Of a stretch of DNA of 33,368 nucleotides, positions 162 to 33,240 are shown one piece after another (position 1 is the first letter of the stretch; every line of letters starts with the position of its first letter). The notes beneath the pieces are model-generated. The model searched no databases. It was given only the letters and a program-made list of their open reading frames with translations, and was not told the origin of the DNA. Where the stretch lies: sequence record NC_070909; one strand, 5' to 3'. A program made the translations under genes and the position numbers. Source of the DNA: Escherichia phage Cartapus.

Positions 162-860
162 ATGGTTATGTTAGTGGATGACTGTCCACGATGTGGATCA
201 CAAAAAATAGCGTTTGATGTTAATGGGCTGAATTGCACTAGGGTTTACAATGCATTGGGCGGGGGTAAAACATACGAGTACGAGGTCTATTGTGTTTGCC
301 GAGAGTGTCATAAAACGACAATGTTTCTTTGCAGACCTTTAACGAAAAATAAAACTTTAGATGGCTATAATTGGGAAAGTGGAATATTCGGCTTAAAGGA
401 AGTTGCAGAGGTTGTTAGGCCTATATCACCGGCAGACTTAGCAGTAGAGGAGCCACCAGAGTTCTTACCTGAGCATATCAATAGTGCATATGAGGAAGGG
501 GCGAAATGTTTGGCTATAGGTTGTTATAATGCAGCAGCAACCATGTTTAGGCTTTGCCTTGATTATGCCACAAAAGGACTTCTTCCTGATGGGGAGCAAG
601 GGCCTGCGCAAAAAATAAGGAGAAGCCTAGGGTTAAGAATGGAGTGGTTATTTGATAATCATCTACTGCCTGAAGCTTTAAGGGAACTAGCTGAATGCGT
701 TAAAGATGACGGAAATGATGGAGCGCATGAAGGTATTTTGGATAAAGCTGCTGCTGAGGATCTTGAAGATTTTACCTATCTTTTTTTAGAACGGCTTTAC
801 ACTGAACCTCAACGCCTTATCGAAGCCAAGACAAGGCGTGAACAAAGAAGAAACAAATAA
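162..860 (+). CDS. accessory protein with N-terminal zinc-ribbon (CPRC...CRECH) and C-terminal DUF4145-like region; function unknown
   Basis: ATG at 162 preceded by GGGAGGAG 8 nt upstream. 232-aa ORF convergent with Q, lying in the cos-Q moron slot. The Cys pairs and the C-terminal GAHEG...LERLY-type region recall DUF4145 (an Abi/restriction-associated domain), from memory only. Confidence 0.6.
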   Translation: MVMLVDDCPRCGSQKIAFDVNGLNCTRVYNALGGGKTYEYEVYCVCRECHKTTMFLCRPLTKNKTLDGYNWESGIFGLKEVAEVVRPISPADLAVEEPPEFLPEHINSAYEEGAKCLAIGCYNAAATMFRLCLDYATKGLLPDGEQGPAQKIRRSLGLRMEWLFDNHLLPEALRELAECVKDDGNDGAHEGILDKAAAEDLEDFTYLFLERLYTEPQRLIEAKTRREQRRNK

Positions 861-20920: not shown

Positions 20921-21402
20921 TGATGGTGCTGGGATTGTACGTGTTTATGCTGCGCACTGTGCCGTATCAGGAACTGCAGTATCAACGCAGCTGGCGACAT
21001 GCGGCAAACAGCCGGGTCAACCGACGTCCGTCCACGCAGTTTCTGGGACCGGACAACGACATGCTGACGCTTTCTGGTGTTCTTATGCCGGAGATAACAG
21101 GCGGCAGGCTGTCGTTGCTGGTACTGGAGCAGATGGCAGAGCAGGGGAAAGCATGGCCCCTGATTGAAGGCAGCGGCACGATTTACGGCATGTATGTGAT
21201 TGAGGGACTGAATCAGACTAAAACGGAGTTTTTCCGCGACGGTATGCCGCGCCGGATTGAGTTCACCCTGTCGCTCAAACGGGTGGATGAATCCCTGTCC
21301 GATATGTTCGGTGATCTCAGTGCGCAACTGAATAATCTGCAGGACACGGCAACGTCTGCCTTAAGCGATATCAGTAAAACGGTGGGAGGGCTGCTGTCGT
21401 GA
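20917..21402 (+). CDS. U: tail protein (P2 gpU-like)
   Basis: 161-aa ORF; its ATG overlaps the T stop (ATGA). Confidence 0.85.
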   Translation: MMMVLGLYVFMLRTVPYQELQYQRSWRHAANSRVNRRPSTQFLGPDNDMLTLSGVLMPEITGGRLSLLVLEQMAEQGKAWPLIEGSGTIYGMYVIEGLNQTKTEFFRDGMPRRIEFTLSLKRVDESLSDMFGDLSAQLNNLQDTATSALSDISKTVGGLLS

Positions 21403-22499
21403 ATTTCAGCTCTGAACTGCTTAACAAAGGCAACAAAACTCCCGCATTCAGCATCAGTATTGAGGGCAGGGATATCACCACTGTGCTGGATAACCGCCTG
21501 ATGAGTTTGACGCTGACGGATAATCGGGGCTTTGAAGCAGACCAGCTTGATCTGGAGCTGGACGACGCCGACGGAAAAATCGTGCTGCCGCGCCGTGGTG
21601 CGGTTATTACGCTGGCGCTGGGCTGGAAGGGGCAGCCGCTTTTCCCGAAAGGGGCATTCACGGTGGACGAGATTGAACACACTGGCGCACCGGACCGCCT
21701 GACTATCCGGGCGCGAAGTGCTGATTTTCGTGAAACGCTGAATACCCGCCGTGAAAAGTCGTGGCACAAGACCACCGTTGGGGAAGTGGTGAAGGAAATA
21801 GCTGCGCGGCACAAACTGAAGATGGCATTGGGTAAAGACCTGTCAGATAAACCCGTGGAACATATAGACCAGACCAATGAGAGTGACGGCAGTTTTCTGA
21901 TGCGACTGGCGCGCCAGTACGGTGCTATTGCGTCGGTGAAAAATGGCAATCTGTTATTCATCCGGCAGGGACAGGGCAAAAGCGCCAGCGGTAAACCACT
22001 GCCGGTGATCACTATCACGCGTAAGGACGGCGACAGTCACCGCTTTACCCTGGCAGATCGCGGAGCCTATACGGGCGTCATTGCCAGCTGGTTGCATACC
22101 CGCGAACCCGCGAAGAAAGAAAGCACCACGGTGAAGCGTAAGCGCAGAACTAAGAAGCAGAAGAAAGAGCCGGAAGCGAAGCAGGGCGATTACCTGGTGG
22201 GGACGGATGAAAACGTGCTGGTACTTAATCGCACTTATGCCAACCGGAGCAACGCCGAACGAGCGGCGAAAATGCAGTGGGAACGCCTGCAACGCGGTGT
22301 TGCGTCATTCTCGCTACAACTGGCGGAAGGTCGGGCAGATCTCTACACGGAAATGCCTGTGAAGGTCAGTGGCTTTAAACAGCCAATAGATGATGCGGAA
22401 TGGACCATTACGACTCTGACACATACCGTCAGCCCGGATAACGGTTTTACGACCAGTATTGAACTTGAAGTGAAAATTGGTGATCTTGAAATGGAGTAA
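21399..22499 (+). CDS. D: tail protein D (P2 gpD-like)
   Basis: 366-aa ORF with a GTG start overlapping the U stop. Last gene of the tail operon before ogr. Confidence 0.85.
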   Translation: MNFSSELLNKGNKTPAFSISIEGRDITTVLDNRLMSLTLTDNRGFEADQLDLELDDADGKIVLPRRGAVITLALGWKGQPLFPKGAFTVDEIEHTGAPDRLTIRARSADFRETLNTRREKSWHKTTVGEVVKEIAARHKLKMALGKDLSDKPVEHIDQTNESDGSFLMRLARQYGAIASVKNGNLLFIRQGQGKSASGKPLPVITITRKDGDSHRFTLADRGAYTGVIASWLHTREPAKKESTTVKRKRRTKKQKKEPEAKQGDYLVGTDENVLVLNRTYANRSNAERAAKMQWERLQRGVASFSLQLAEGRADLYTEMPVKVSGFKQPIDDAEWTITTLTHTVSPDNGFTTSIELEVKIGDLEME

Positions 22500-22567
22500 A
22501 TGGTTCTCAATATTGATATTTTGTGTATCATTGCAATGATTCTGATAGCAAAGGTAGGGATCTGGAT

Positions 22568-22786
22568 ATGATGAATTGTCCAAAGTGTGGTCATGCGGCG
22601 CACACAAGGAGCAGTTTTCAAGTAACAGAAAGCACCAAAGAGCGTTACTGCCAGTGCCAAAATATTAACTGCGGGAGCACTTTTGTTACCCATGAAACAG
22701 TGGTCCGGTTTATTGTGACACCTGCAGTGATTGCCACAGCCCCTCCACATCCATTGCCAGGTGGTCAGGGCCATATGAATTTTTAA
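22568..22786 (+). CDS. ogr: late gene transcriptional activator, Ogr/Delta-type zinc finger
   Basis: Track ORF 22523-22786. The ATG at 22568 gives MMNCPKCGHAAHTRSSFQVTESTKERYCQCQNINCGSTF..., matching the C-x2-C...C-x4-C Ogr zinc finger as recalled. Confidence 0.85.
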   Translation: MMNCPKCGHAAHTRSSFQVTESTKERYCQCQNINCGSTFVTHETVVRFIVTPAVIATAPPHPLPGGQGHMNF

Positions 22787-22793
22787 GAAAGAG

Positions 22794-22817
22794 AACCTGC
22801 TACGGCAGGTTTTTATT
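22794..22817. terminator. hairpin plus T-tract between convergent ogr and the WYL/BRCT gene
   Basis: AACCTGC-TACG-GCAGGTT followed by TTTTATT, 8 nt after the ogr stop. It overlaps the 3-prime end of the minus-strand gene, so it may act in both directions. Confidence 0.6.
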
Positions 22818-23295
22818 CATCTGGGATCTCACCCGTTTCAAGAAAATGTATAAAGCCAGGCTCATCTATGATGATAGTGCCTTTCATCCTGGCTGCCGAT
22901 ACTTTTGATGGGCCTGCATTGTAACCGCAACAGAGCATCTGAAGGTTTTGGGTTACAGATGTTCTTACCGTTAATCCTTGTTCATTCGCCTTATCAACCA
23001 ACCTTTCTTTATCTGCTTTCTTAAATCCGGTGAAACACACATCGAATGTATTTTTTTTCGGACCTGACTGCTTAGTGAGATGTGAGTAGTTTTCGGGGAG
23101 GAATGACGCGCATTCCTGAATGGCTTGTTCTTGTGAATCGTATTGTTTAAGAATGCGGTCTTTTCGGAAGGTTTTTATTCGATCGGTGTTCTTACAAATG
23201 CCCTGTATGTGATTTTCGCTATAACTGATGCTCTGTATTGAGTGAACACCGATACGACCATTTGCATTGATGTAAACAAAGTGAAGTTCTTCCAT
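22813..23295 (-). CDS. small protein with WYL-like N-terminal region and C-terminal BRCT-like domain; function unknown
   Basis: 160-aa ORF, ATG at 23295 with an AAGAGG RBS. C-terminus (DVCFTGF...GLTVRTSVTQNL...GPSK...IIIDEPGFIHFL) resembles the BRCT domain of NAD-dependent ligases. N-terminus (GRIGVHSIQ...IKTFRKDRI) resembles a WYL domain. Both by recalled motifs only. Confidence 0.5.
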   Translation of the reverse strand: MEELHFVYINANGRIGVHSIQSISYSENHIQGICKNTDRIKTFRKDRILKQYDSQEQAIQECASFLPENYSHLTKQSGPKKNTFDVCFTGFKKADKERLVDKANEQGLTVRTSVTQNLQMLCCGYNAGPSKVSAARMKGTIIIDEPGFIHFLETGEIPDE

Positions 23296-23376: not shown

Positions 23377-23408
23377 AAGAAAAAGGGGCTACGCTTTCAC
23401 GTAACCCC
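23377..23408 (-). terminator. rho-independent terminator on the minus strand immediately after the ssrA-derived core
   Basis: Minus-strand reading gives a 9-bp stem (GGGGUUACG/CGUAGCCCC, one G-U pair), a 6-nt loop and a TTTTTCTT tract, directly downstream of the tmRNA-like 3-prime end. Confidence 0.5.
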
Positions 23409-23418
23409 TTGATTTATT

Positions 23419-23463
23419 TGGTGGAGCTGGCGGGAGTTGAACCCGCGTCCGAAATTCCTACAT
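23419..23463 (-). other. attP: attP core: 45 nt identical to the 3-prime end of ssrA (tmRNA)
   Basis: The reverse complement reads ...ATGTAGGAATTTCGGACGCGGGTTCAACTCCCGCCAGCTCCACCA, the tmRNA T-arm and acceptor end including CCA, as I recall E. coli ssrA. Identity stops abruptly at 23463. Confidence 0.8.
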
Positions 23464-23582: not shown

Positions 23583-24788
23583 TCATGGTTTAATATGGGC
23601 ATATACTTGAATTTCATCCATACAAGTTTCGAGTTTATAAAAGTCAGTTAAATTATAGATGTTCAAAATTTCATCATCTATGCTTCCTGTTAGCTCACGA
23701 TTTTTTCTTCTTCGTAGCCTTCTGCTGAGATTCTCTCGATCGGATTGTGCAACTGATTCAGGCACGTACTCAACTGTTTTTAGGACCTGCCAAGATACAG
23801 GCAATGTGAATTTGAAAATTTTCGCTAGATTTGGACAAAATTCATTATTGGCCATCTCCTCGTAACGCACTTTTGGAGGAAGTACCACATTTATTCCTCT
23901 GCTACCTAAGGCATTAGCAGGTAATTTTGTTGAGCGGTAGGCTATACCAACAACATTCTCATTGCTGTTCCGACTGATCCATTGCATCAAAAGATTGGGG
24001 ATAATATATTCTTGTACAAAGGAAGCATTGTCATATTTTTTTAAATAATTGCATGCAATTATCAAAGGCCAAAGTGCTAAATATGAGAGTTTGGTATTGA
24101 AATCATATTTGTTCTTTCTTTTTGACTCTAATATAGATCTCTGTTTATATAAAAAATCAGGTCCTATATTTAGTACCTTTGAGTCATTATTTTTATCGAT
24201 CTTGTAGGCAGATATATATAGCTTATCAAAATCTGGCTTATCCATTTCTCTCCAGCATATATAAAGAGATGTTCCTAAATATAAACAGGGTAGACCAGCA
24301 ACTGAAAATCTCTGTGCTCTAACAAAGTGACGCTGACTGAACGGAATATGAAACATATCTCTTCTTGATGTAAGTGGCGTATCAGATTTTCTAACGCGGA
24401 ATAATGGTTTATCTTCATTACATAAGTCAGAAAGAGGTATGCATATATTTTCAATATGACGAGATATAGTTCGTGGCTCTAGCATACTTTCAAATGAGTC
24501 ATATGCCGACTTAATATCCCCTGATAAAAAACACTCTAAACACGAGACGATTTCTTTCTGCATGATATCTACAGCTCTAAGTCTATTGCGCAAGCGTAAA
24601 CTTAACCTGTTATCATTTTCCTGGATGTAATCTACTAAACAACCCCGGAATTTACTGCATTTTAGAGCGAAGTCATCTATCAAAGTAAGGTTTTTTTCAA
24701 TCTCAATTGGTGGTCGAATACTTGATTTTTTTCTAATAGTGTCAAAAAGATTATTAAGTTCTTCATCGAGTTCTTGTTGAATATGCAT
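23583..24788 (-). CDS. large accessory protein with a RES-domain-like core (possible NAD+-targeting toxin-type fold); function unknown
   Basis: 401-aa AT-rich ORF, 9 nt downstream of the int stop. The central segment ...FRVRKSD...QRFSVAGLPCLYLGTSLYICWRE... parallels the Arg / Tyr-x-x-x-Ser / Glu core of RES toxins (MbcT/ParT type) as recalled. No adjacent antitoxin-like ORF. Confidence 0.5.
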   Translation of the reverse strand: MHIQQELDEELNNLFDTIRKKSSIRPPIEIEKNLTLIDDFALKCSKFRGCLVDYIQENDNRLSLRLRNRLRAVDIMQKEIVSCLECFLSGDIKSAYDSFESMLEPRTISRHIENICIPLSDLCNEDKPLFRVRKSDTPLTSRRDMFHIPFSQRHFVRAQRFSVAGLPCLYLGTSLYICWREMDKPDFDKLYISAYKIDKNNDSKVLNIGPDFLYKQRSILESKRKNKYDFNTKLSYLALWPLIIACNYLKKYDNASFVQEYIIPNLLMQWISRNSNENVVGIAYRSTKLPANALGSRGINVVLPPKVRYEEMANNEFCPNLAKIFKFTLPVSWQVLKTVEYVPESVAQSDRENLSRRLRRRKNRELTGSIDDEILNIYNLTDFYKLETCMDEIQVYAHIKP

Positions 24789-24797
24789 TTTTATTTA

Positions 24798-25814
24798 TCA
24801 CTTTAAGTTAAATAAGGGGTTTTTAGTAACAGCATCTTCAAGATGTTCTGGTGCGAAATGGGCATAGACCATTGTCATTTTTATATCTGAGTGCCCTAAA
24901 ATATCTCTCAATACAAGAATATTTCCGCCATTCATCATAAAGTGACTAGCGAATGTATGGCGCAATACATGCGTGCACTGGCCCTCTGGCAAGTCAATAC
25001 CTGCTCTTTTTACTGCACGCTCAAAAGATTTTCTGCATGGCGTGAATAACTTCCCTCTGTTTTTGGGGAGTTCGTGATACAGATCTTGAGATATTGGTAC
25101 TGTTCTGTTTTTCTTGCCCTTTGTCTTTGTATAAGTAATTCGGTATTTCGATATTTGGTGGCCCTGAAGGTTTTCGGCTTCACTCCACCGTGCGCCGGTA
25201 GCTAAGCATATTTTTGCAATCATTAGTAGGCTCGGGCTTTGAGATTCAGCACATGCAGCCAACAGGCGCTTGATTTCGTCCACGGAAAGAAAAGCCAGCT
25301 CACCTTCGGTAATTTTGAAGGTCGGAAGTCCTGCCAGCGGGTTTGGTGCTGACCAGTGTCCTAGTTTTTTTAATGTACCGAACACCGATGATAGATTGCG
25401 CTGTTCAAGGTTTACCGTGCGGGGCTTAACGGGCGACATAAGCGTGCCATCTTCATTTCGTACTTCACCTTTTAACCGTGCTTCGCGGTATTTCGTAAAG
25501 TCACCGGCTGTTAGTTCTGAGGCGATGGGATCGCCTAGACCATTACAGATAATTCTAAGTTTCGCCATGAGGCGCTTGGGGTCTGCGAGTGTTTGACCAT
25601 ACAGGGAATACCACTGCTCAATTAATTCTGATAGGTGTCGCCGATCTTCCTTTTCCCCCAGCCATGGTTTTTTGTTCACTTCTTCCATTGTGAAGCTTTC
25701 AAAAGCAATGGCTTCGCCTTTCGTAGCAAATTGCTTACGCACGCGCTTGCCATTGCGTCCATTGGGATAGCACTCGCACAACCATTTACCGTTTGGCTGT
25801 TTTCTGACAGTCAT
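24798..25814 (-). CDS. int: tyrosine integrase (phage integrase family)
   Basis: 338 aa. C-terminal ...HVLRHTFASHF...LGHSDIKMTMVYAHF carries the R-H-R-Y catalytic signature. Adjacent to attP and the repressor gene. Confidence 0.9.
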   Translation of the reverse strand: MTVRKQPNGKWLCECYPNGRNGKRVRKQFATKGEAIAFESFTMEEVNKKPWLGEKEDRRHLSELIEQWYSLYGQTLADPKRLMAKLRIICNGLGDPIASELTAGDFTKYREARLKGEVRNEDGTLMSPVKPRTVNLEQRNLSSVFGTLKKLGHWSAPNPLAGLPTFKITEGELAFLSVDEIKRLLAACAESQSPSLLMIAKICLATGARWSEAENLQGHQISKYRITYTKTKGKKNRTVPISQDLYHELPKNRGKLFTPCRKSFERAVKRAGIDLPEGQCTHVLRHTFASHFMMNGGNILVLRDILGHSDIKMTMVYAHFAPEHLEDAVTKNPLFNLK

Positions 25815-25816
25815 GT

Positions 25817-26449
25817 TTAGATACTCTTTATTACTTTGACTGCACGCCCAATAACTTCCACATCATCAGTAGAGCACTCGAAAGACGCTTCATCTTGATT
25901 TACTACAATCTTATTGCCGGGAATCCGCATGATTTTTGCAACAATAATCATTCCATCAATATTGATAAGCCAGAATCCATTGCTGACCTGTTTAATTGAT
26001 TTATCGATGAGATAACAATCAGTAGGGGTTTCTAAGAACATCGATTCTTCATAATCTGCAGGTAATATGCTGTGGTCTAGGAAAATCTCTTCATCAATAC
26101 TGAGTTGTCCATTCTCCAGGGTTCCTTTAGGAATAGCTGGAGTTATGAGTTTGGATAACGGTTTAATTGCTTGTTTGTTCTCATTATGAGAACTTTTCTC
26201 AGGCTCAGCTCCTCCTTTCATGCTTCCCTGTCCTGTAGCTAACCAAAGCAACGAAACACCGGTTTCTAGTGCGCACTGAATTATCCAGTCAGCAGGAAAG
26301 CTGTCACGTAACACTCTGTTTGCCATAGTGCTTTTTGAGACATTCAGGTGCTCGCTTAATGCCTGCTTAGTTGTGAATCCATAAGCCTCAAGCAGCCTTT
26401 CAATAGCTGCCTTACCTCCCGTATCGGAACCCATTCTGATGTTTAACAT
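25817..26449 (-). CDS. cI: CI-like immunity repressor (N-terminal HTH)
   Basis: 210-aa ORF upstream of and co-oriented with int, divergent from the apl/cII operon. HTH-like region TTKQALSEHLNVSKSTMANRV. GGAG RBS. Confidence 0.7.
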   Translation of the reverse strand: MLNIRMGSDTGGKAAIERLLEAYGFTTKQALSEHLNVSKSTMANRVLRDSFPADWIIQCALETGVSLLWLATGQGSMKGGAEPEKSSHNENKQAIKPLSKLITPAIPKGTLENGQLSIDEEIFLDHSILPADYEESMFLETPTDCYLIDKSIKQVSNGFWLINIDGMIIVAKIMRIPGNKIVVNQDEASFECSTDDVEVIGRAVKVIKSI

Positions 26450-26462
26450 TGGTAATCTCCAT

Positions 26463-26491
26463 TTGACAATCTTGAATCAAGATCGTAATGT
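26463..26491 (+). promoter_or_regulatory. candidate rightward early promoter (TTGACA-N17-TAATGT) with an embedded palindromic operator
   Basis: TTGACA at 26463-26468, TAATGT at 26486-26491, and the palindrome ATCTTGA-A-TCAAGAT at 26469-26483 between them. Further TCTTGA half-sites lie downstream. Confidence 0.4.
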
Positions 26492-26570
26492 CTTCATGTC
26501 TCTTGATGTGAGAGTTTAAGAGACGGGCTAAAACGAACTAACACGCACACAAAGTAAGAGATACTGCACT

Positions 26571-26813
26571 ATGAGTACTGATATTTCAATTCGTGTACCA
26601 AAAGAGATGGCTACGCCTGCAGAGTTCGCAGAGTGGGAGGGTATTTCCCGCGGCTCTGTTTACCAAAAAATTCACCATGGTCAACTTGCTAAGTACATGG
26701 TCAAGAAAGAAAAAAACAAAGGTCGCGTAAGCCTGCGTTATCTGATGTACAAAACCGATCAGGTCCGTGAATCCCTCGGTCATTCCAACTTCCGAGTCAT
26801 TGTTGGTAAGTAA
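26571..26813 (+). CDS. Apl/Cox-like small HTH protein (excisionase/transcription switch)
   Basis: 80-aa first gene of the rightward operon, with HTH-like FAEWEGISRGSVYQKIHHGQL. Coordinates taken from the ORF track; my own base count put the start codon one position earlier. Confidence 0.6.
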   Translation: MSTDISIRVPKEMATPAEFAEWEGISRGSVYQKIHHGQLAKYMVKKEKNKGRVSLRYLMYKTDQVRESLGHSNFRVIVGK

Positions 26814-26846
26814 GTTCAATTATGGGAACTTTCTAAGGGGGGCACC

Positions 26847-31813: not shown

Positions 31814-32002
31814 ATGCAGGACTATTTTTTGGAGTCTTTGAAGCTCCAGCGCATTGATTTTTTTCTTAAGCTTGTAGCGGCTAGTGAGTGTAGTGATGAA
31901 GAGAAGGGGCTGGCCCTGCAGTGGGTTTCTGAACTGACAGATGAACTCATGGCAAAAATCAGAACCCACGAATACAACCGCTCAATGGATGTCATCAGCT
32001 GA
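31814..32002 (+). CDS. tum: Tum-like SOS-inducible antirepressor (putative)
   Basis: 62-aa ORF with AGGAGGA RBS directly downstream of the LexA box, followed by a DinI-like ORF, as at the phage 186 tum locus. Confidence 0.45.
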   Translation: MQDYFLESLKLQRIDFFLKLVAASECSDEEKGLALQWVSELTDELMAKIRTHEYNRSMDVIS

Positions 32003-32012
32003 GGTGACTTTT

Positions 32013-32246
32013 ATGCGCATTGAAATAATGATCGATAAAGAGCAGAAGATTAGCCAGTCTACCCTGGACGCTCTGGAGTCCGAGCTTTACCGCAACCTGC
32101 AACCCATCTATCCCAAGACAGCTATCCGCATCCGTAAAGGGTCGGCAAACGGCGTTGAGCTGAGTGGCTTAAAGCTTGATGAAGACAAAAAGCGGGTGAT
32201 GGAAATTATGCAGCAGGTTTGGGAAGACGACAGCTGGCTGCACTAA
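32013..32246 (+). CDS. DinI-like protein
   Basis: Track ORF 31941-32246. The ATG at 32013 gives MRIEIMIDKEQKISQSTLDALESELYRNLQ..., closely parallel to E. coli DinI as recalled. 77 aa. Confidence 0.75.
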   Translation: MRIEIMIDKEQKISQSTLDALESELYRNLQPIYPKTAIRIRKGSANGVELSGLKLDEDKKRVMEIMQQVWEDDSWLH

Positions 32247-32319
32247 GGAACGTTCCTGATGTAAGAACTTGATTCTGACGTCAGCAAGGTTGAACAACGA
32301 GAGTAGCGAGGCGTTAGCC

Positions 32320-32580
32320 ATGGGTAAAAAAGACAGTAATCACCAGATTATTTATCGGGGCCAGGTGCTGGAACGGTTTACCCCTGGCGGCTGGGTCTTC
32401 TTTCAACGCCCAAAGGAGTGTGGCGGAGGTTTTTGGTTGGGCCGCACCTATGAAGACTGCTTCTGGCTTGAGCTGGAATTCCCCGTTTCGCTATATGACG
32501 GCCTGGAGTTTTTGATGGAAGTCACCAGGGTAGAGCAGAGAAGTGATGAGGTTGACGCGAATTATTCCCTGTTTGATTAA
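32320..32580 (+). CDS. hypothetical protein (accessory, cos-proximal)
   Basis: Track ORF 32269-32580. ATG at 32320 (MGKKDSNHQIIYRGQ...), 86 aa. No domain recognised. Confidence 0.4.
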   Translation: MGKKDSNHQIIYRGQVLERFTPGGWVFFQRPKECGGGFWLGRTYEDCFWLELEFPVSLYDGLEFLMEVTRVEQRSDEVDANYSLFD

Positions 32581-32628
32581 AAATGTATTAGCTTATAATG
32601 GAATACTATTTTTGCAGGTGGGGGCGCA

Positions 32629-33240
32629 ATGGATTTAGTCTTTAAAATTCTGGCTTCGTTGGGTGGGGTGTCTTTTGTTGCATCTGGCATATTTGTTTGG
32701 ATCGGGAAAGTTTATTTAGAAAGATATAAGTCGCGGCTAAACAAAGATATTGCTGAATTTCAATCACAACTGAGTGCAACTAATGAAAGAATAAAGGCTA
32801 AGTTAGACAATTCTGTTTATGTAACGAAAGCGTATTTTGATAAGGAGTTATCAGCATATAGTCTCATTTGGAATTCGATGTTTGAAACCAGAGAAAGCGT
32901 GCTTAAGCTGAGGCCTGCGCTGGATCATTTTGACCCCAACGAACCATTTGAAGAGAGAAAATTTAGAAGGTTGAAAGTTTTTTTCGATGCATTTAATACT
33001 TTTGTTACAAGTGTTGAGTCTAACAAACCGTTCATCTCACCAGAGGTTTATATAATCTTGGACCGTTTCCGGAAGGAATGCCTTTCAGAGTCAATATCGT
33101 TTCAGCATGGCGATCCAGAATTTGACTGGCAAAATTATTGGAAAGAGGCAGAGTTGAACCGTACAACCATCACCAAGCTTTTTGATGAGACGTGTGATGC
33201 AATTCGAGACAGGATGCACACATTAACTGTGGTTACGTAG
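32629..33240 (+). CDS. hypothetical membrane-anchored protein (accessory, cos-proximal moron)
   Basis: 203-aa AT-rich ORF with one N-terminal hydrophobic helix (LVFKILASLGGVSFVASGIFVWIG), then a charged, probably helical region. Followed by a terminator. Confidence 0.5.
   Translation: MDLVFKILASLGGVSFVASGIFVWIGKVYLERYKSRLNKDIAEFQSQLSATNERIKAKLDNSVYVTKAYFDKELSAYSLIWNSMFETRESVLKLRPALDHFDPNEPFEERKFRRLKVFFDAFNTFVTSVESNKPFISPEVYIILDRFRKECLSESISFQHGDPEFDWQNYWKEAELNRTTITKLFDETCDAIRDRMHTLTVVT

What the first reader, a model, noticed from the sequence alone, without database searches (positions are those of the whole stretch)
22527..22540. Perfect 14-bp palindrome in the ogr promoter region
ATCATTGCAATGAT lies about 30 nt upstream of the ogr start, between D and ogr. 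It is not followed by a T-tract, so it is more likely a protein-binding site (possible control of ogr expression) than a terminator.
Basis: seen in the sequence. Interest (0 to 1): 0.2.

Follow-up and report, generated by a model that had tools for sequence, protein, structure and literature searches.

The report
Palindrome overlapping the ogr promoter −10
The 14-bp palindrome is real, but it is most likely just the core of the promoter of the phage's late-gene activator (its −10 box plus the start-site region), made perfectly symmetric by one base change that most related phages lack, so it is ordinary rather than a dedicated repressor site.

Summary
ATCATTGCAATGAT is at 22527-22540, 27 nt upstream of the ogr/B start codon (22568), in a 186-like phage genome. 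A 14-bp perfect palindrome is not unusual here: the window has 4, against about 2-2.5 expected.

The left arm is the −10 hexamer TATCAT (22526-22531). This hexamer is invariant in all relatives and aligns with the annotated −10 of phage 186 promoter pB. The right arm is specific to this lineage and lies over the predicted transcription start.

Perfect symmetry is a minority allele. Position 22533 is G in 12 of 56 viral contigs and 27 of 173 E. coli genomes; most carry A, as do the outgroups. The right arm plus centre is more polymorphic than the rest of the promoter and leader, and no change is compensated.

The sequence does not follow the immunity repressor. Phage RE2010 has a 100% identical CI but no palindrome. 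CP019275 has a 46% identical CI and a different switch, yet carries the near-palindrome.

The sequence matches none of the window's candidate CI operators and forms no RNA hairpin.

Verdict: this is the core of a pB-type ogr promoter. "Not a terminator" is correct. A dedicated operator is unsupported but not excluded. Interest is low.

The parts
22527..22540 (.). The reported perfect 14-bp palindrome ATCATTG|CAATGAT. It spans roughly −12 to +3 of the predicted ogr promoter.
   Evidence: Read directly. It is one of 4 such palindromes in the window. Position 22533 is polymorphic G/A in relatives.
22504..22509 (+). Predicted −35 hexamer TTCTCA of the ogr promoter (P1). It is positionally homologous to the 186 pB −35, TTCACA.
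   Evidence: Promoter scan (TTCTCA-16-TATCAT). Alignment to annotated 186 pB. It lies within the block GTTCTCAATATTGA, which is conserved in the Fels-2/Wadgaonvirus-type relatives aligned; 186 differs here.
22526..22531 (+). Predicted −10 hexamer TATCAT. It supplies the left arm of the palindrome.
   Evidence: TATCATT is invariant in all 7 aligned lineages, including 186, where TATCAT is the annotated pB −10. It shows no variation in 30 haplotypes.
22513..22540 (+). Alternative overlapping promoter-like arrangement P2: TTGATA-16-(TGc)AATGAT. Its −10-like hexamer is the right arm of the palindrome.
   Evidence: 9/12 match, with TG upstream of the second hexamer. It is not conserved outside the window's own lineage, so it is weaker than P1.
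22537..22539 (+). Predicted transcription start of ogr. This is an inference, not a mapped site.
   Evidence: The annotated 186 pB feature ends 7 nt after its −10. The same spacing from 22531 gives about 22538.
22541..22567 (+). ogr 5' leader with a Shine-Dalgarno-like AAAGGTAGGG (22550-22559).
   Evidence: It is completely invariant in 30 haplotypes of close relatives.
22568..22786 (+). ogr/B late-gene activator (72 aa, Ogr/Delta zinc finger).
   Evidence: Pfam PF04606, E = 9e-21. 67% identical to 186 B.
22794..22811 (.). Stem-loop AACCTGC-TACG-GCAGGTT with T-runs on both sides. It is a likely bidirectional terminator after ogr, corresponding to 186 tB.
   Evidence: One search flagged it on the − strand. 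On the + strand it is followed by TTTATT. 186 has tB at the same place.
21399..22499 (+). Tail gene D, the last gene of the late tail operon. No terminator separates it from ogr, so read-through into ogr is possible.
   Evidence: The 186 annotation says tB ends transcripts both from pB and from the late promoter.

Best explanation
The palindrome is not a separate regulatory element. It is the core of the sigma-70 promoter of the late-activator gene ogr, the counterpart of phage 186 pB.

The left arm (ATCATTG) is the conserved −10 hexamer TATCAT plus two bases. The right arm (CAATGAT) is a lineage-specific stretch over the discriminator and transcription start. The right arm is itself −10-like (TGcAATGAT). 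A motif of the form ATNAT is self-complementary, so two neighbouring −10-like hexamers read as a dyad.

Perfect symmetry comes from a single A-to-G change at 22533. Most relatives and the outgroups carry A there. RNA polymerase holoenzyme is the protein this DNA is built to bind, and ogr transcripts from this promoter would start at about 22538, inside the right arm.

Shown here: the homology and invariance of the −10, the minority status of the perfect dyad, the lack of selection for symmetry, and independence from the CI type. Inferred: promoter activity and the start site.
For: Family and promoter homology
- The window is a 186-like genome with CI (PF07022/PF16452), a Cox/Apl-like gene, CII and an Ogr/Delta protein.
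- In the 186 record, pB lies between D and B with −35 TTCACA and −10 TATCAT.
- In the 7-lineage alignment TATCATT is invariant and falls on 22526-22532.
- The scan finds TTCTCA-16-TATCAT there.

The right arm differs between lineages
- Window: GCAATGAT.
- RE2010 and Fels-2: ATTGCGAT.
- MLG42: ATTGAGAT.
- Contig L080: ATTGAGAA.

Allele counts
- 56 close viral contigs: 12 perfect, 38 ATCATTACAATGAT, 6 other.
- Complete E. coli genomes: 27 perfect and 132 with A, out of 173 carrying the region.

Polymorphism in 30 haplotypes
- −10 hexamer: 0 of 6 sites vary.
- Leader: 0 of 27 sites vary.
- Right arm plus centre: 4 of 8 sites vary. Every change breaks the symmetry and none is compensated (Fisher p = 0.024 against the rest of the promoter and leader).

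Independence from the repressor
- RE2010 has a 100% identical CI and an almost identical switch (one base differs in the stretch compared), but has ATCATTATTGCGAT at this position.
- CP019275 and contig L016 have a 46%-identical CI type with an unrelated pR region, yet carry ATCATTACAATGAT and ATCATTACGATGAT.
- Contigs with the window-type switch carry G, A and other alleles.

No RNA structure and no relevant Rfam family.
Against: - No transcription data exist for this phage, so the promoter and the start site are inferred by homology.
- The palindrome sits where a repressor would be most effective (−10 to +1). It also sits where 186 has its second CI operator.
- The outer 6+6 dyad ATCATT..AATGAT is kept in both main alleles. 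A change at the centre of an operator need not abolish binding.
- A 5-nt or longer inverted partner of the −10 sequence occurs near it in 5 of the 6 lineage sequences compared. Only 13-21% is expected per lineage, although side and spacing differ each time. This hints at something more than chance.
- Many E. coli copies are prophage remnants in which regulatory sites may be decaying.
Confidence: 0.62

Rival explanations
1. The palindrome is an operator for the phage's own CI repressor. CI would block the −10 and start site of the ogr promoter in lysogens, as 186 CI does at pB.
For: - 186 pB carries two CI sites, one over the −35 and one just downstream of the −10. The window's palindrome plus TCTGATAGC occupies the place of the second one.
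- The window's CI belongs to the same family (30% identity, same two Pfam domains).
- A 186-like phage needs some way to keep its late activator off in lysogens. This point rests on established knowledge of 186 and is not tested here.
Against: - RE2010, with an identical CI, has no palindrome. CP019275 and L016, with a different CI and switch, have the near-palindrome.
- Only 5 of 27 E. coli genomes with the perfect allele carry the window-type switch. Some of the other 22 are remnants.
- The sequence matches none of the window's candidate CI sites: the pR palindrome ATCTTGAATCAAGAT, the FL-like GTTCTCATTATGAGAAC, or the FR-like GTTC-N8-GAAC.
- The equivalent pattern search in 186 recovers pB (both sites), FL and FR with 1 mismatch or fewer, so the method can detect such sites.
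- The architecture is 7-0-7 (14 bp), not the 6-5-6 (17 bp) of 186.
- Symmetry-breaking polymorphisms are uncompensated.
Confidence: 0.15
2. The dyad ATCATT..AATGAT is bound by a factor that does not depend on immunity type. This could be a host protein or a phage protein inherited with the late-gene module, and it would modulate ogr expression.
For: - The D-ogr spacer travels with the late genes and not with the immunity region, as such a site would.
- The 6+6 dyad is present in both main alleles.
- Inverted partners of the −10 sequence recur in other lineages more often than shuffles predict: RE2010 AATGAT-N5-ATCATT and 186 ATGAT-T-ATCAT.
Against: - The partner lies on different sides and at different spacings in different lineages, which one dimeric protein could not accommodate.
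- Lineages with the same ogr (88-93% identical) have a quite different sequence here.
- From my own knowledge, and untested here, the sequence fits none of the E. coli operator consensus sequences I recalled (CRP, FNR, Fur, IHF, LexA and LacI-family sites).
- The right arm is the most variable part of the promoter.
Confidence: 0.12
3. The palindrome acts in RNA, as a hairpin in D-to-ogr read-through transcripts that terminates, attenuates or directs processing.
For: No terminator separates D from ogr, so late-operon read-through transcripts would contain the palindrome. The 186 annotation says tB ends late-promoter transcripts too.
Against: - The best local fold is −1.5 kcal/mol with z = 0.73.
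- The whole spacer folds no better than shuffles (z = 0.80), and the palindrome is not paired with itself in the minimum-energy fold.
- There is no T-tract and no Rfam match.
- Changes in relatives are not compensatory.
Confidence: 0.03

Closest known systems
Phage 186 promoter pB (promoter of the late activator gene B) with its two CI operators
   Same: - Same genomic slot, between tail gene D and the Ogr/Delta-family activator, with a terminator after the activator.
- Same −10 hexamer TATCAT and a similar −35 (TTCACA in 186, TTCTCA here).
- Similar distance from the −10 to the AAAGG ribosome-binding motif that precedes the start codon.
   Different: - 186 has two 17-bp 6-5-6 inverted repeats, ATTCAC-N5-GTGAAT, that recur at FL and FR.
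- The window has a 14-bp 7-0-7 palindrome of unrelated sequence that recurs nowhere.
- The window's own FL-like site, GTTCTC-N5-GAGAAC, has no full counterpart at the ogr promoter. Only the half-site-like GTTCTC overlaps the −35.
- In this lineage the spacer does not co-vary with the CI type.
Phage P2 ogr promoter
   Same: Both are promoters dedicated to the zinc-finger late activator, placed at the end of the tail operon. The gene can therefore also be read through from the late promoter. This is from my own recollection of the P2 literature, which I could not retrieve here.
   Different: P2 has a C/Cox-type switch without CII, whereas the window has the 186-type set of CI, a Cox/Apl-like gene and CII. 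I could not check the P2 promoter sequence or its regulation with the tools, so no sequence comparison was made.
Ogr-promoter regions of Salmonella phages RE2010 and Fels-2 and Yersinia phage MLG42
   Same: They share the conserved GTTCTCAA(T/C)ATTG block over the −35 and the invariant GTATCATT −10. RE2010 even shares a 100% identical CI.
   Different: After the −10 they read ATTGCGAT or ATTGAGAT instead of GCAATGAT, so no palindrome is formed. RE2010 instead has AATGAT-GATGT-ATCATT upstream of and overlapping the −10. More distant contigs have 11-12-nt arms, (A/G)AGTTCTCAATA / TATTGAGAACTT, flanking the whole promoter.

Membership tests
186-type CI operator at the late-activator promoter (B-type site) | A 17-bp inverted repeat with 6-nt arms and a 5-nt spacer | tested here: not met
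   The palindrome is 14 bp with 7-nt arms and no spacer. Searching the window for the analogue of its FL-like site, GTTCTC-N5-GAGAAC, with up to 3 mismatches finds nothing between D and ogr.
186-type CI operator at the late-activator promoter (B-type site) | The same recognition sequence recurs at the sites flanking the switch (FL, FR) in the same genome | tested here: not met
   In 186 the pattern recovers pB (both sites), FL and FR with 1 mismatch or fewer. In the window the palindrome has no second copy with 2 or fewer mismatches. The FL/FR-like sites at 26177-26193 and 26812-26831 have a different sequence.
186-type CI operator at the late-activator promoter (B-type site) | Overlaps core promoter elements so that bound repressor excludes RNA polymerase | tested here: met
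   The palindrome covers the −10 hexamer and the predicted start. The position is compatible with repression, but it is equally explained by the sequence being the promoter itself.
186-type CI operator at the late-activator promoter (B-type site) | Operator sequence co-varies with the repressor (immunity) type | tested here: not met
   Identical CI in RE2010, no palindrome. A 46%-identical CI with an unrelated pR region in CP019275 and L016, near-palindrome present. The window-type switch occurs with G, A and other alleles.
186-type CI operator at the late-activator promoter (B-type site) | Physical binding by CI and repression in vivo | not testable with these tools
   This needs EMSA or footprinting with purified CI, and reporter assays.
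Sigma-70 promoter of the Ogr/B late activator (pB / ogr-promoter type) | −35 and −10 hexamers at 16-18 bp spacing, immediately upstream of the activator gene and downstream of D | tested here: met
   TTCTCA-16-TATCAT at 22504-22531. 186 pB is TTCACA-17-TATCAT in the same slot.
Sigma-70 promoter of the Ogr/B late activator (pB / ogr-promoter type) | Core elements conserved across relatives | tested here: met
   TATCATT is invariant in 7 lineages. Across 30 close haplotypes the −10 never varies, and the −35 varies in only 2 singletons.
Sigma-70 promoter of the Ogr/B late activator (pB / ogr-promoter type) | A mapped transcription start | not testable with these tools
   No transcript data are available. 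The start at about 22538 is inferred from the 186 annotation.
Intrinsic (Rho-independent) terminator | A stable GC-rich hairpin followed by a T-tract | tested here: not met
   The hairpin is −1.5 kcal/mol with z = 0.73. The following sequence is TCTGATAGC. The scan reports only the site after ogr at 22794-22811.

The most novel reading that the evidence does not exclude
In this Fels-2/Wadgaonvirus-like branch of the 186-like phages, the late-activator promoter has lost the immunity-specific CI operators seen at 186 pB. In this reading the dyad ATCATT..AATGAT over the −10 and start site is the operator of a different, immunity-independent regulator, which keeps ogr silent in lysogens or times its expression. 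That regulator would be inherited with the late-gene module, which would explain why the same spacer serves prophages with different CI types.
Probability: 0.1. Interest if true: 0.4.

Novelty: already known. Interest (0 to 1): 0.08.

Why it matters
As read here it matters little. It is the expected promoter of the late activator in a 186-like phage, and the symmetry is incidental.

The one point of wider interest is indirect. In this lineage the ogr-promoter spacer assorts independently of the immunity repressor type, and it carries no full copy of the candidate CI sites found around the switch. In 186, by contrast, CI represses pB directly.

If ogr in these phages is not under direct CI control, how lysogens keep the late genes silent becomes a small open question. 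A few reporter and binding assays could settle it.

Tried and rejected
- Second copies of the palindrome in the window: none beyond chance.
- Similarity to the pR palindrome ATCTTGAATCAAGAT: none.
- A 186-style B-type site at the ogr promoter. The 186 positive control works. The window analogue occurs only at the FL-like position inside cI.
- RNA hairpin, terminator or Rfam family: rejected.
- P2/186 activator box TGT-N12-ACA and 186 CII half-sites ATGTTTG/CAAACAT: checked by eye, absent from 22500-22567.
- Host-factor consensus sequences (CRP, FNR, Fur, IHF, LexA, LacI-family, CytR): compared from memory only. There was no convincing fit and I make no claim.
- Shared 12-mer TCAATATTGATA between the ogr promoter (22507-22518) and the cI coding region (25956-25967), with TTGCAA at a similar offset. 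Judged to be chance, because about 66 shared 12-mers are expected in a window of this size (my arithmetic).
- Literature. Full-text searches found no paper on the ogr promoter. The Birkeland 1991 paper on P2 ogr transcription is not held. What I use about 186 comes from the annotated record and PMC3675496.
- An intact prophage with the perfect allele and a non-window CI. The two genomes I opened (FORC_042, NCTC9038) turned out to be remnants or shorter elements without the immunity region at the expected distance. That cell of the cross-table stays unverified.

Full report
**Observation**

ATCATTGCAATGAT is at 22527-22540. It lies in the 68-bp spacer between the stop codon of tail gene D (22497-22499) and the ATG of a 72-aa Ogr/Delta zinc-finger protein at 22568-22786. 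The gap to the ATG is 27 nt. No T-tract follows the palindrome.

The window contains four perfect 14-bp palindromes. About 2 to 2.5 are expected, and 92% of Markov simulations have at least one. Size alone is therefore not remarkable. Only the position in a short regulatory spacer is, and that is a post-hoc criterion. No other copy with 2 or fewer mismatches exists in the window.

**Context**

The window is a 186-like phage genome of the family Peduoviridae. The closest record is the Wadgaonvirus phage 500465-1. Its features are:

- an integrase at 24798-25814;
- a CI repressor at 25817-26449, with both CI Pfam domains and 30% identity to 186 CI;
- a Cox/Apl-like gene;
- a 169-aa CII;
- an Ogr/B protein 67% identical to 186 B.

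The annotated 186 record places promoter pB between D and B. It has −35 TTCACA, −10 TATCAT, and "two CI binding sites for repression of pB". These sites are ATTCAC-N5-GTGAAT and ATTCAC-N5-GAGAAT. PMC3675496 describes the rest of the 186 CI system: three operators at pR, and single 17-bp operators FL and FR about 300 bp away.

**What the palindrome is made of**

The D-ogr spacers of the window, CP019275, RE2010, Fels-2, MLG42, an IMG/VR contig and 186 were aligned. TATCATT is invariant in all seven, and it falls on window 22526-22532. This is the annotated −10 of 186 pB.

The consensus scan independently finds TTCTCA-16-TATCAT at 22504-22531. It also finds an overlapping arrangement, TTGATA-16-TGcAATGAT.

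The left arm of the palindrome is therefore the −10 hexamer plus two bases. The right arm lies over the predicted start, about 22538 by analogy with 186. The right arm differs between lineages: GCAATGAT here, ATTGCGAT in RE2010 and Fels-2, ATTGAGAT in MLG42, and ATTGAGAA in the aligned contig L080.

Both arms fit the pattern nATnAT. That pattern is self-complementary, so two adjacent −10-like hexamers look like a dyad.

**Is the symmetry selected?**

Allele counts at position 22533:

| Data set | Perfect (G) | ATCATTACAATGAT (A) | Other or unassigned |
|---|---|---|---|
| 56 close IMG/VR contigs | 12 | 38 | 6 |
| 173 complete E. coli genomes with the region | 27 | 132 | 14 |

The "other" contig forms are ACAATAAT, GCATTGAT, ACGATGAT and one deletion. 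The outgroups also have A at the aligned column, so G is probably the derived state.

Variation across 30 distinct haplotypes:

| Segment | Variable sites |
|---|---|
| −10 hexamer | 0 of 6 |
| 27-nt leader | 0 of 27 |
| Right arm plus central base | 4 of 8 |

Every change in the right arm and centre breaks the symmetry, and none is compensated. Against the rest of the promoter and leader, the excess gives Fisher p = 0.024. This is the opposite of what a conserved dyad operator would show.

**Does it follow the repressor?**

Two natural experiments say no.

- Salmonella phage RE2010 encodes a CI 100% identical to the window's and has an almost identical switch region (one base differs in the stretch compared). 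Its D-ogr spacer reads ...GTATCATTATTGCGATTACGG..., with no palindrome.
- The prophage in record CP019275 has a D-ogr segment 96% identical to the window, with ATCATTACAATGAT. Its CI is only 46% identical and its pR region is unrelated. Contig L016 combines that second switch type with ATCATTACGATGAT.

Other observations point the same way.

- Ten contigs with the window-type switch carry the G, A and other alleles.
- In complete E. coli genomes the window-type switch is present in 61 genomes. Only 5 of the 27 perfect-allele genomes have it, each 28-31 kb from the palindrome.
- Caveat: at least two perfect-allele genomes (FORC_042, NCTC9038) have no immunity region at the expected distance; FORC_042 is a remnant fused to another prophage.
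- RE2010 and Fels-2 share nearly the same spacer although their CIs are only about 58% identical.

The spacer is therefore inherited with the late genes and not with the immunity region.

**Comparison with the window's own candidate CI sites**

The pR region has a perfect 15-bp palindrome, ATCTTGAATCAAGAT, between a TTGACA −35 and a TAATGT −10.

Inside cI, about 285 bp from pR, lies a perfect 17-bp palindrome, GTTCTC-ATTAT-GAGAAC, at 26177-26193. It has the same 6-5-6 architecture as 186 FL. Between apl and cII lies AAGTTCAATTATGGGAACTT at 26812-26831, at the position of 186 FR.

The ogr palindrome resembles none of these. The same kind of pattern search in 186 recovers pB (both sites), FL and FR. 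The only link is that the −35 region, GTTCTCA, contains one FL-like half-site.

**RNA-level readings**

The palindrome folds to −1.5 kcal/mol (z = 0.73). The whole spacer folds no better than shuffles (z = 0.80). There is no relevant Rfam match. The real terminator-like stem-loop is after ogr, at 22794-22811.

**A residual oddity**

A 5-nt or longer inverted partner of the −10 sequence occurs within 9 nt in 5 of the 6 lineage sequences compared:

- window: downstream;
- RE2010: AATGAT-N5-ATCATT, upstream;
- Fels-2: TAATG-N6-CATTA;
- contig L080: CATTA-N9-TAATG;
- 186: ATGAT-T-ATCAT.

Each is expected in only 13-21% of shuffles. Side and spacing differ every time, and some of these lineages share ancestry. 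I read this as enrichment of −10-like motifs in a promoter, not as a protein site. It does keep the operator readings from being excluded.

**Verdict**

"Not a terminator" is right. "In the ogr promoter" is right and can be sharpened: the palindrome spans the −10 hexamer and the start-site region of a pB-type promoter. "Protein-binding site controlling ogr" is not supported beyond RNA polymerase itself.

| Reading | Confidence |
|---|---|
| Promoter core with incidental symmetry | about 0.6 |
| CI operator | about 0.15 |
| Immunity-independent factor | about 0.12 |
| RNA element | about 0.03 |

Novelty: nothing beyond the known pB/ogr-promoter kind. Interest is low.

Noticed in passing
window 26177-26193: A perfect 17-bp palindrome, GTTCTC-ATTAT-GAGAAC, lies inside the cI coding region about 285 bp left of the pR −35. 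It has the same 6-5-6 architecture and relative position as the 186 flanking CI operator FL. It is a good candidate for the FL site of this immunity type and is also present in RE2010.
   Followed up: partly
window 26812-26831: AAGTTCAATTATGGGAACTT lies between apl and cII, at the position of 186 FR (AATTCACTTTATGTGAATT). Near-identical versions occur in prophages with different CI types: CP019275 has ...ATGAGAACTT and MLG42 has ...ATGTGAACTT. Either these repressors share this class of site, or the element serves something else, such as the pE region.
   Followed up: partly
window 26463-26514: The pR-like promoter is TTGACA-17-TAATGT, with a perfect 15-bp palindrome, ATCTTGAATCAAGAT (26469-26483), between the hexamers. 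A second dyad, CTCT-TGATGTG-AGAG, is centred 31 bp to the right. These are likely the main CI operators of this immunity type.
   Followed up: partly
loci L059-L082 and L122 (MLG42), just upstream of ogr: In relatives whose Ogr is 88-93% identical, the promoter is bracketed by a long inverted repeat. The arms are (A/G)AGTTCTCAATA and TATTGAGAACTT (11-12 nt), with about 19-20 nt between them that contain the −10. The window keeps only the left arm (GGTTCTCAATA). The function is unknown; it could be a pair of repressor half-sites or a stem-loop in read-through RNA.
   Followed up: no
window 22533-22537 compared with L083 (RE2010), D-ogr spacer (33669-33737 record coordinates): The window's ATCATT-GCAAT-GAT and RE2010's ATCATT-ATTGC-GAT differ by what looks like a 5-bp inversion, since GCAAT is the reverse complement of ATTGC. 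The derived A-to-G change at 22533 perfects a quasi-palindrome. Both are the kind of change that template switching at inverted repeats produces, but this may be coincidence.
   Followed up: no
window 23402-23446 (and a weaker match extending to 23700), − strand: A partial tmRNA (ssrA) 3' match, below the Rfam gathering score. It fits an attP core for integration at ssrA. Related prophages sit next to ssrA and smpB in E. coli.
   Followed up: partly
window 22813-23295 (−) and 23583-24788 (−): Two cargo genes lie on either side of the tmRNA-like (attP) segment, in the stretch between ogr and int. One is a 160-aa protein with a BRCT-like C-terminus (PHROG 'DNA ligase' family, weak PADLOC PDC-S48 match). 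The other is a 401-aa protein of unknown function (phrog_7835, no Pfam or PADLOC hit). RE2010 has a hypothetical gene of the same size and strand next to int, which I did not compare by sequence.
   Followed up: partly
window 162-860 (+) and 31941-33240 (+): Accessory genes lie near the window ends: a 232-aa 'DNA binding protein' PHROG with a weak PD-T7-4 defence-model match, a DinI/Tum-like 101-aa protein, and two proteins of unknown function. A further GTTC-N9-GAAC dyad sits at 32252-32268, between the DinI-like gene and the next ORF.
   Followed up: no
E. coli genomes NZ_CP025318.1 (L124), NZ_LR134082.1 (L125) and NZ_CP032986.1; contig L003: Some copies of the D-ogr end are prophage remnants. 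In FORC_042 the tail-to-ogr segment is fused to a Mu-like prophage. NCTC9038 has no immunity region at the expected distance. In BE2-5 the switch and the ogr promoter are only about 0.9 kb apart. In L003 a deletion joins tape-measure sequence directly to the −10 region. This shows how often this prophage decays at ssrA.
   Followed up: partly
window 22400-22499 compared with loci L004-L058: The last 100 nt of gene D vary at 47% of sites among otherwise close relatives, against 10% in ogr. This suggests a mosaic junction close to the D stop codon.
   Followed up: no
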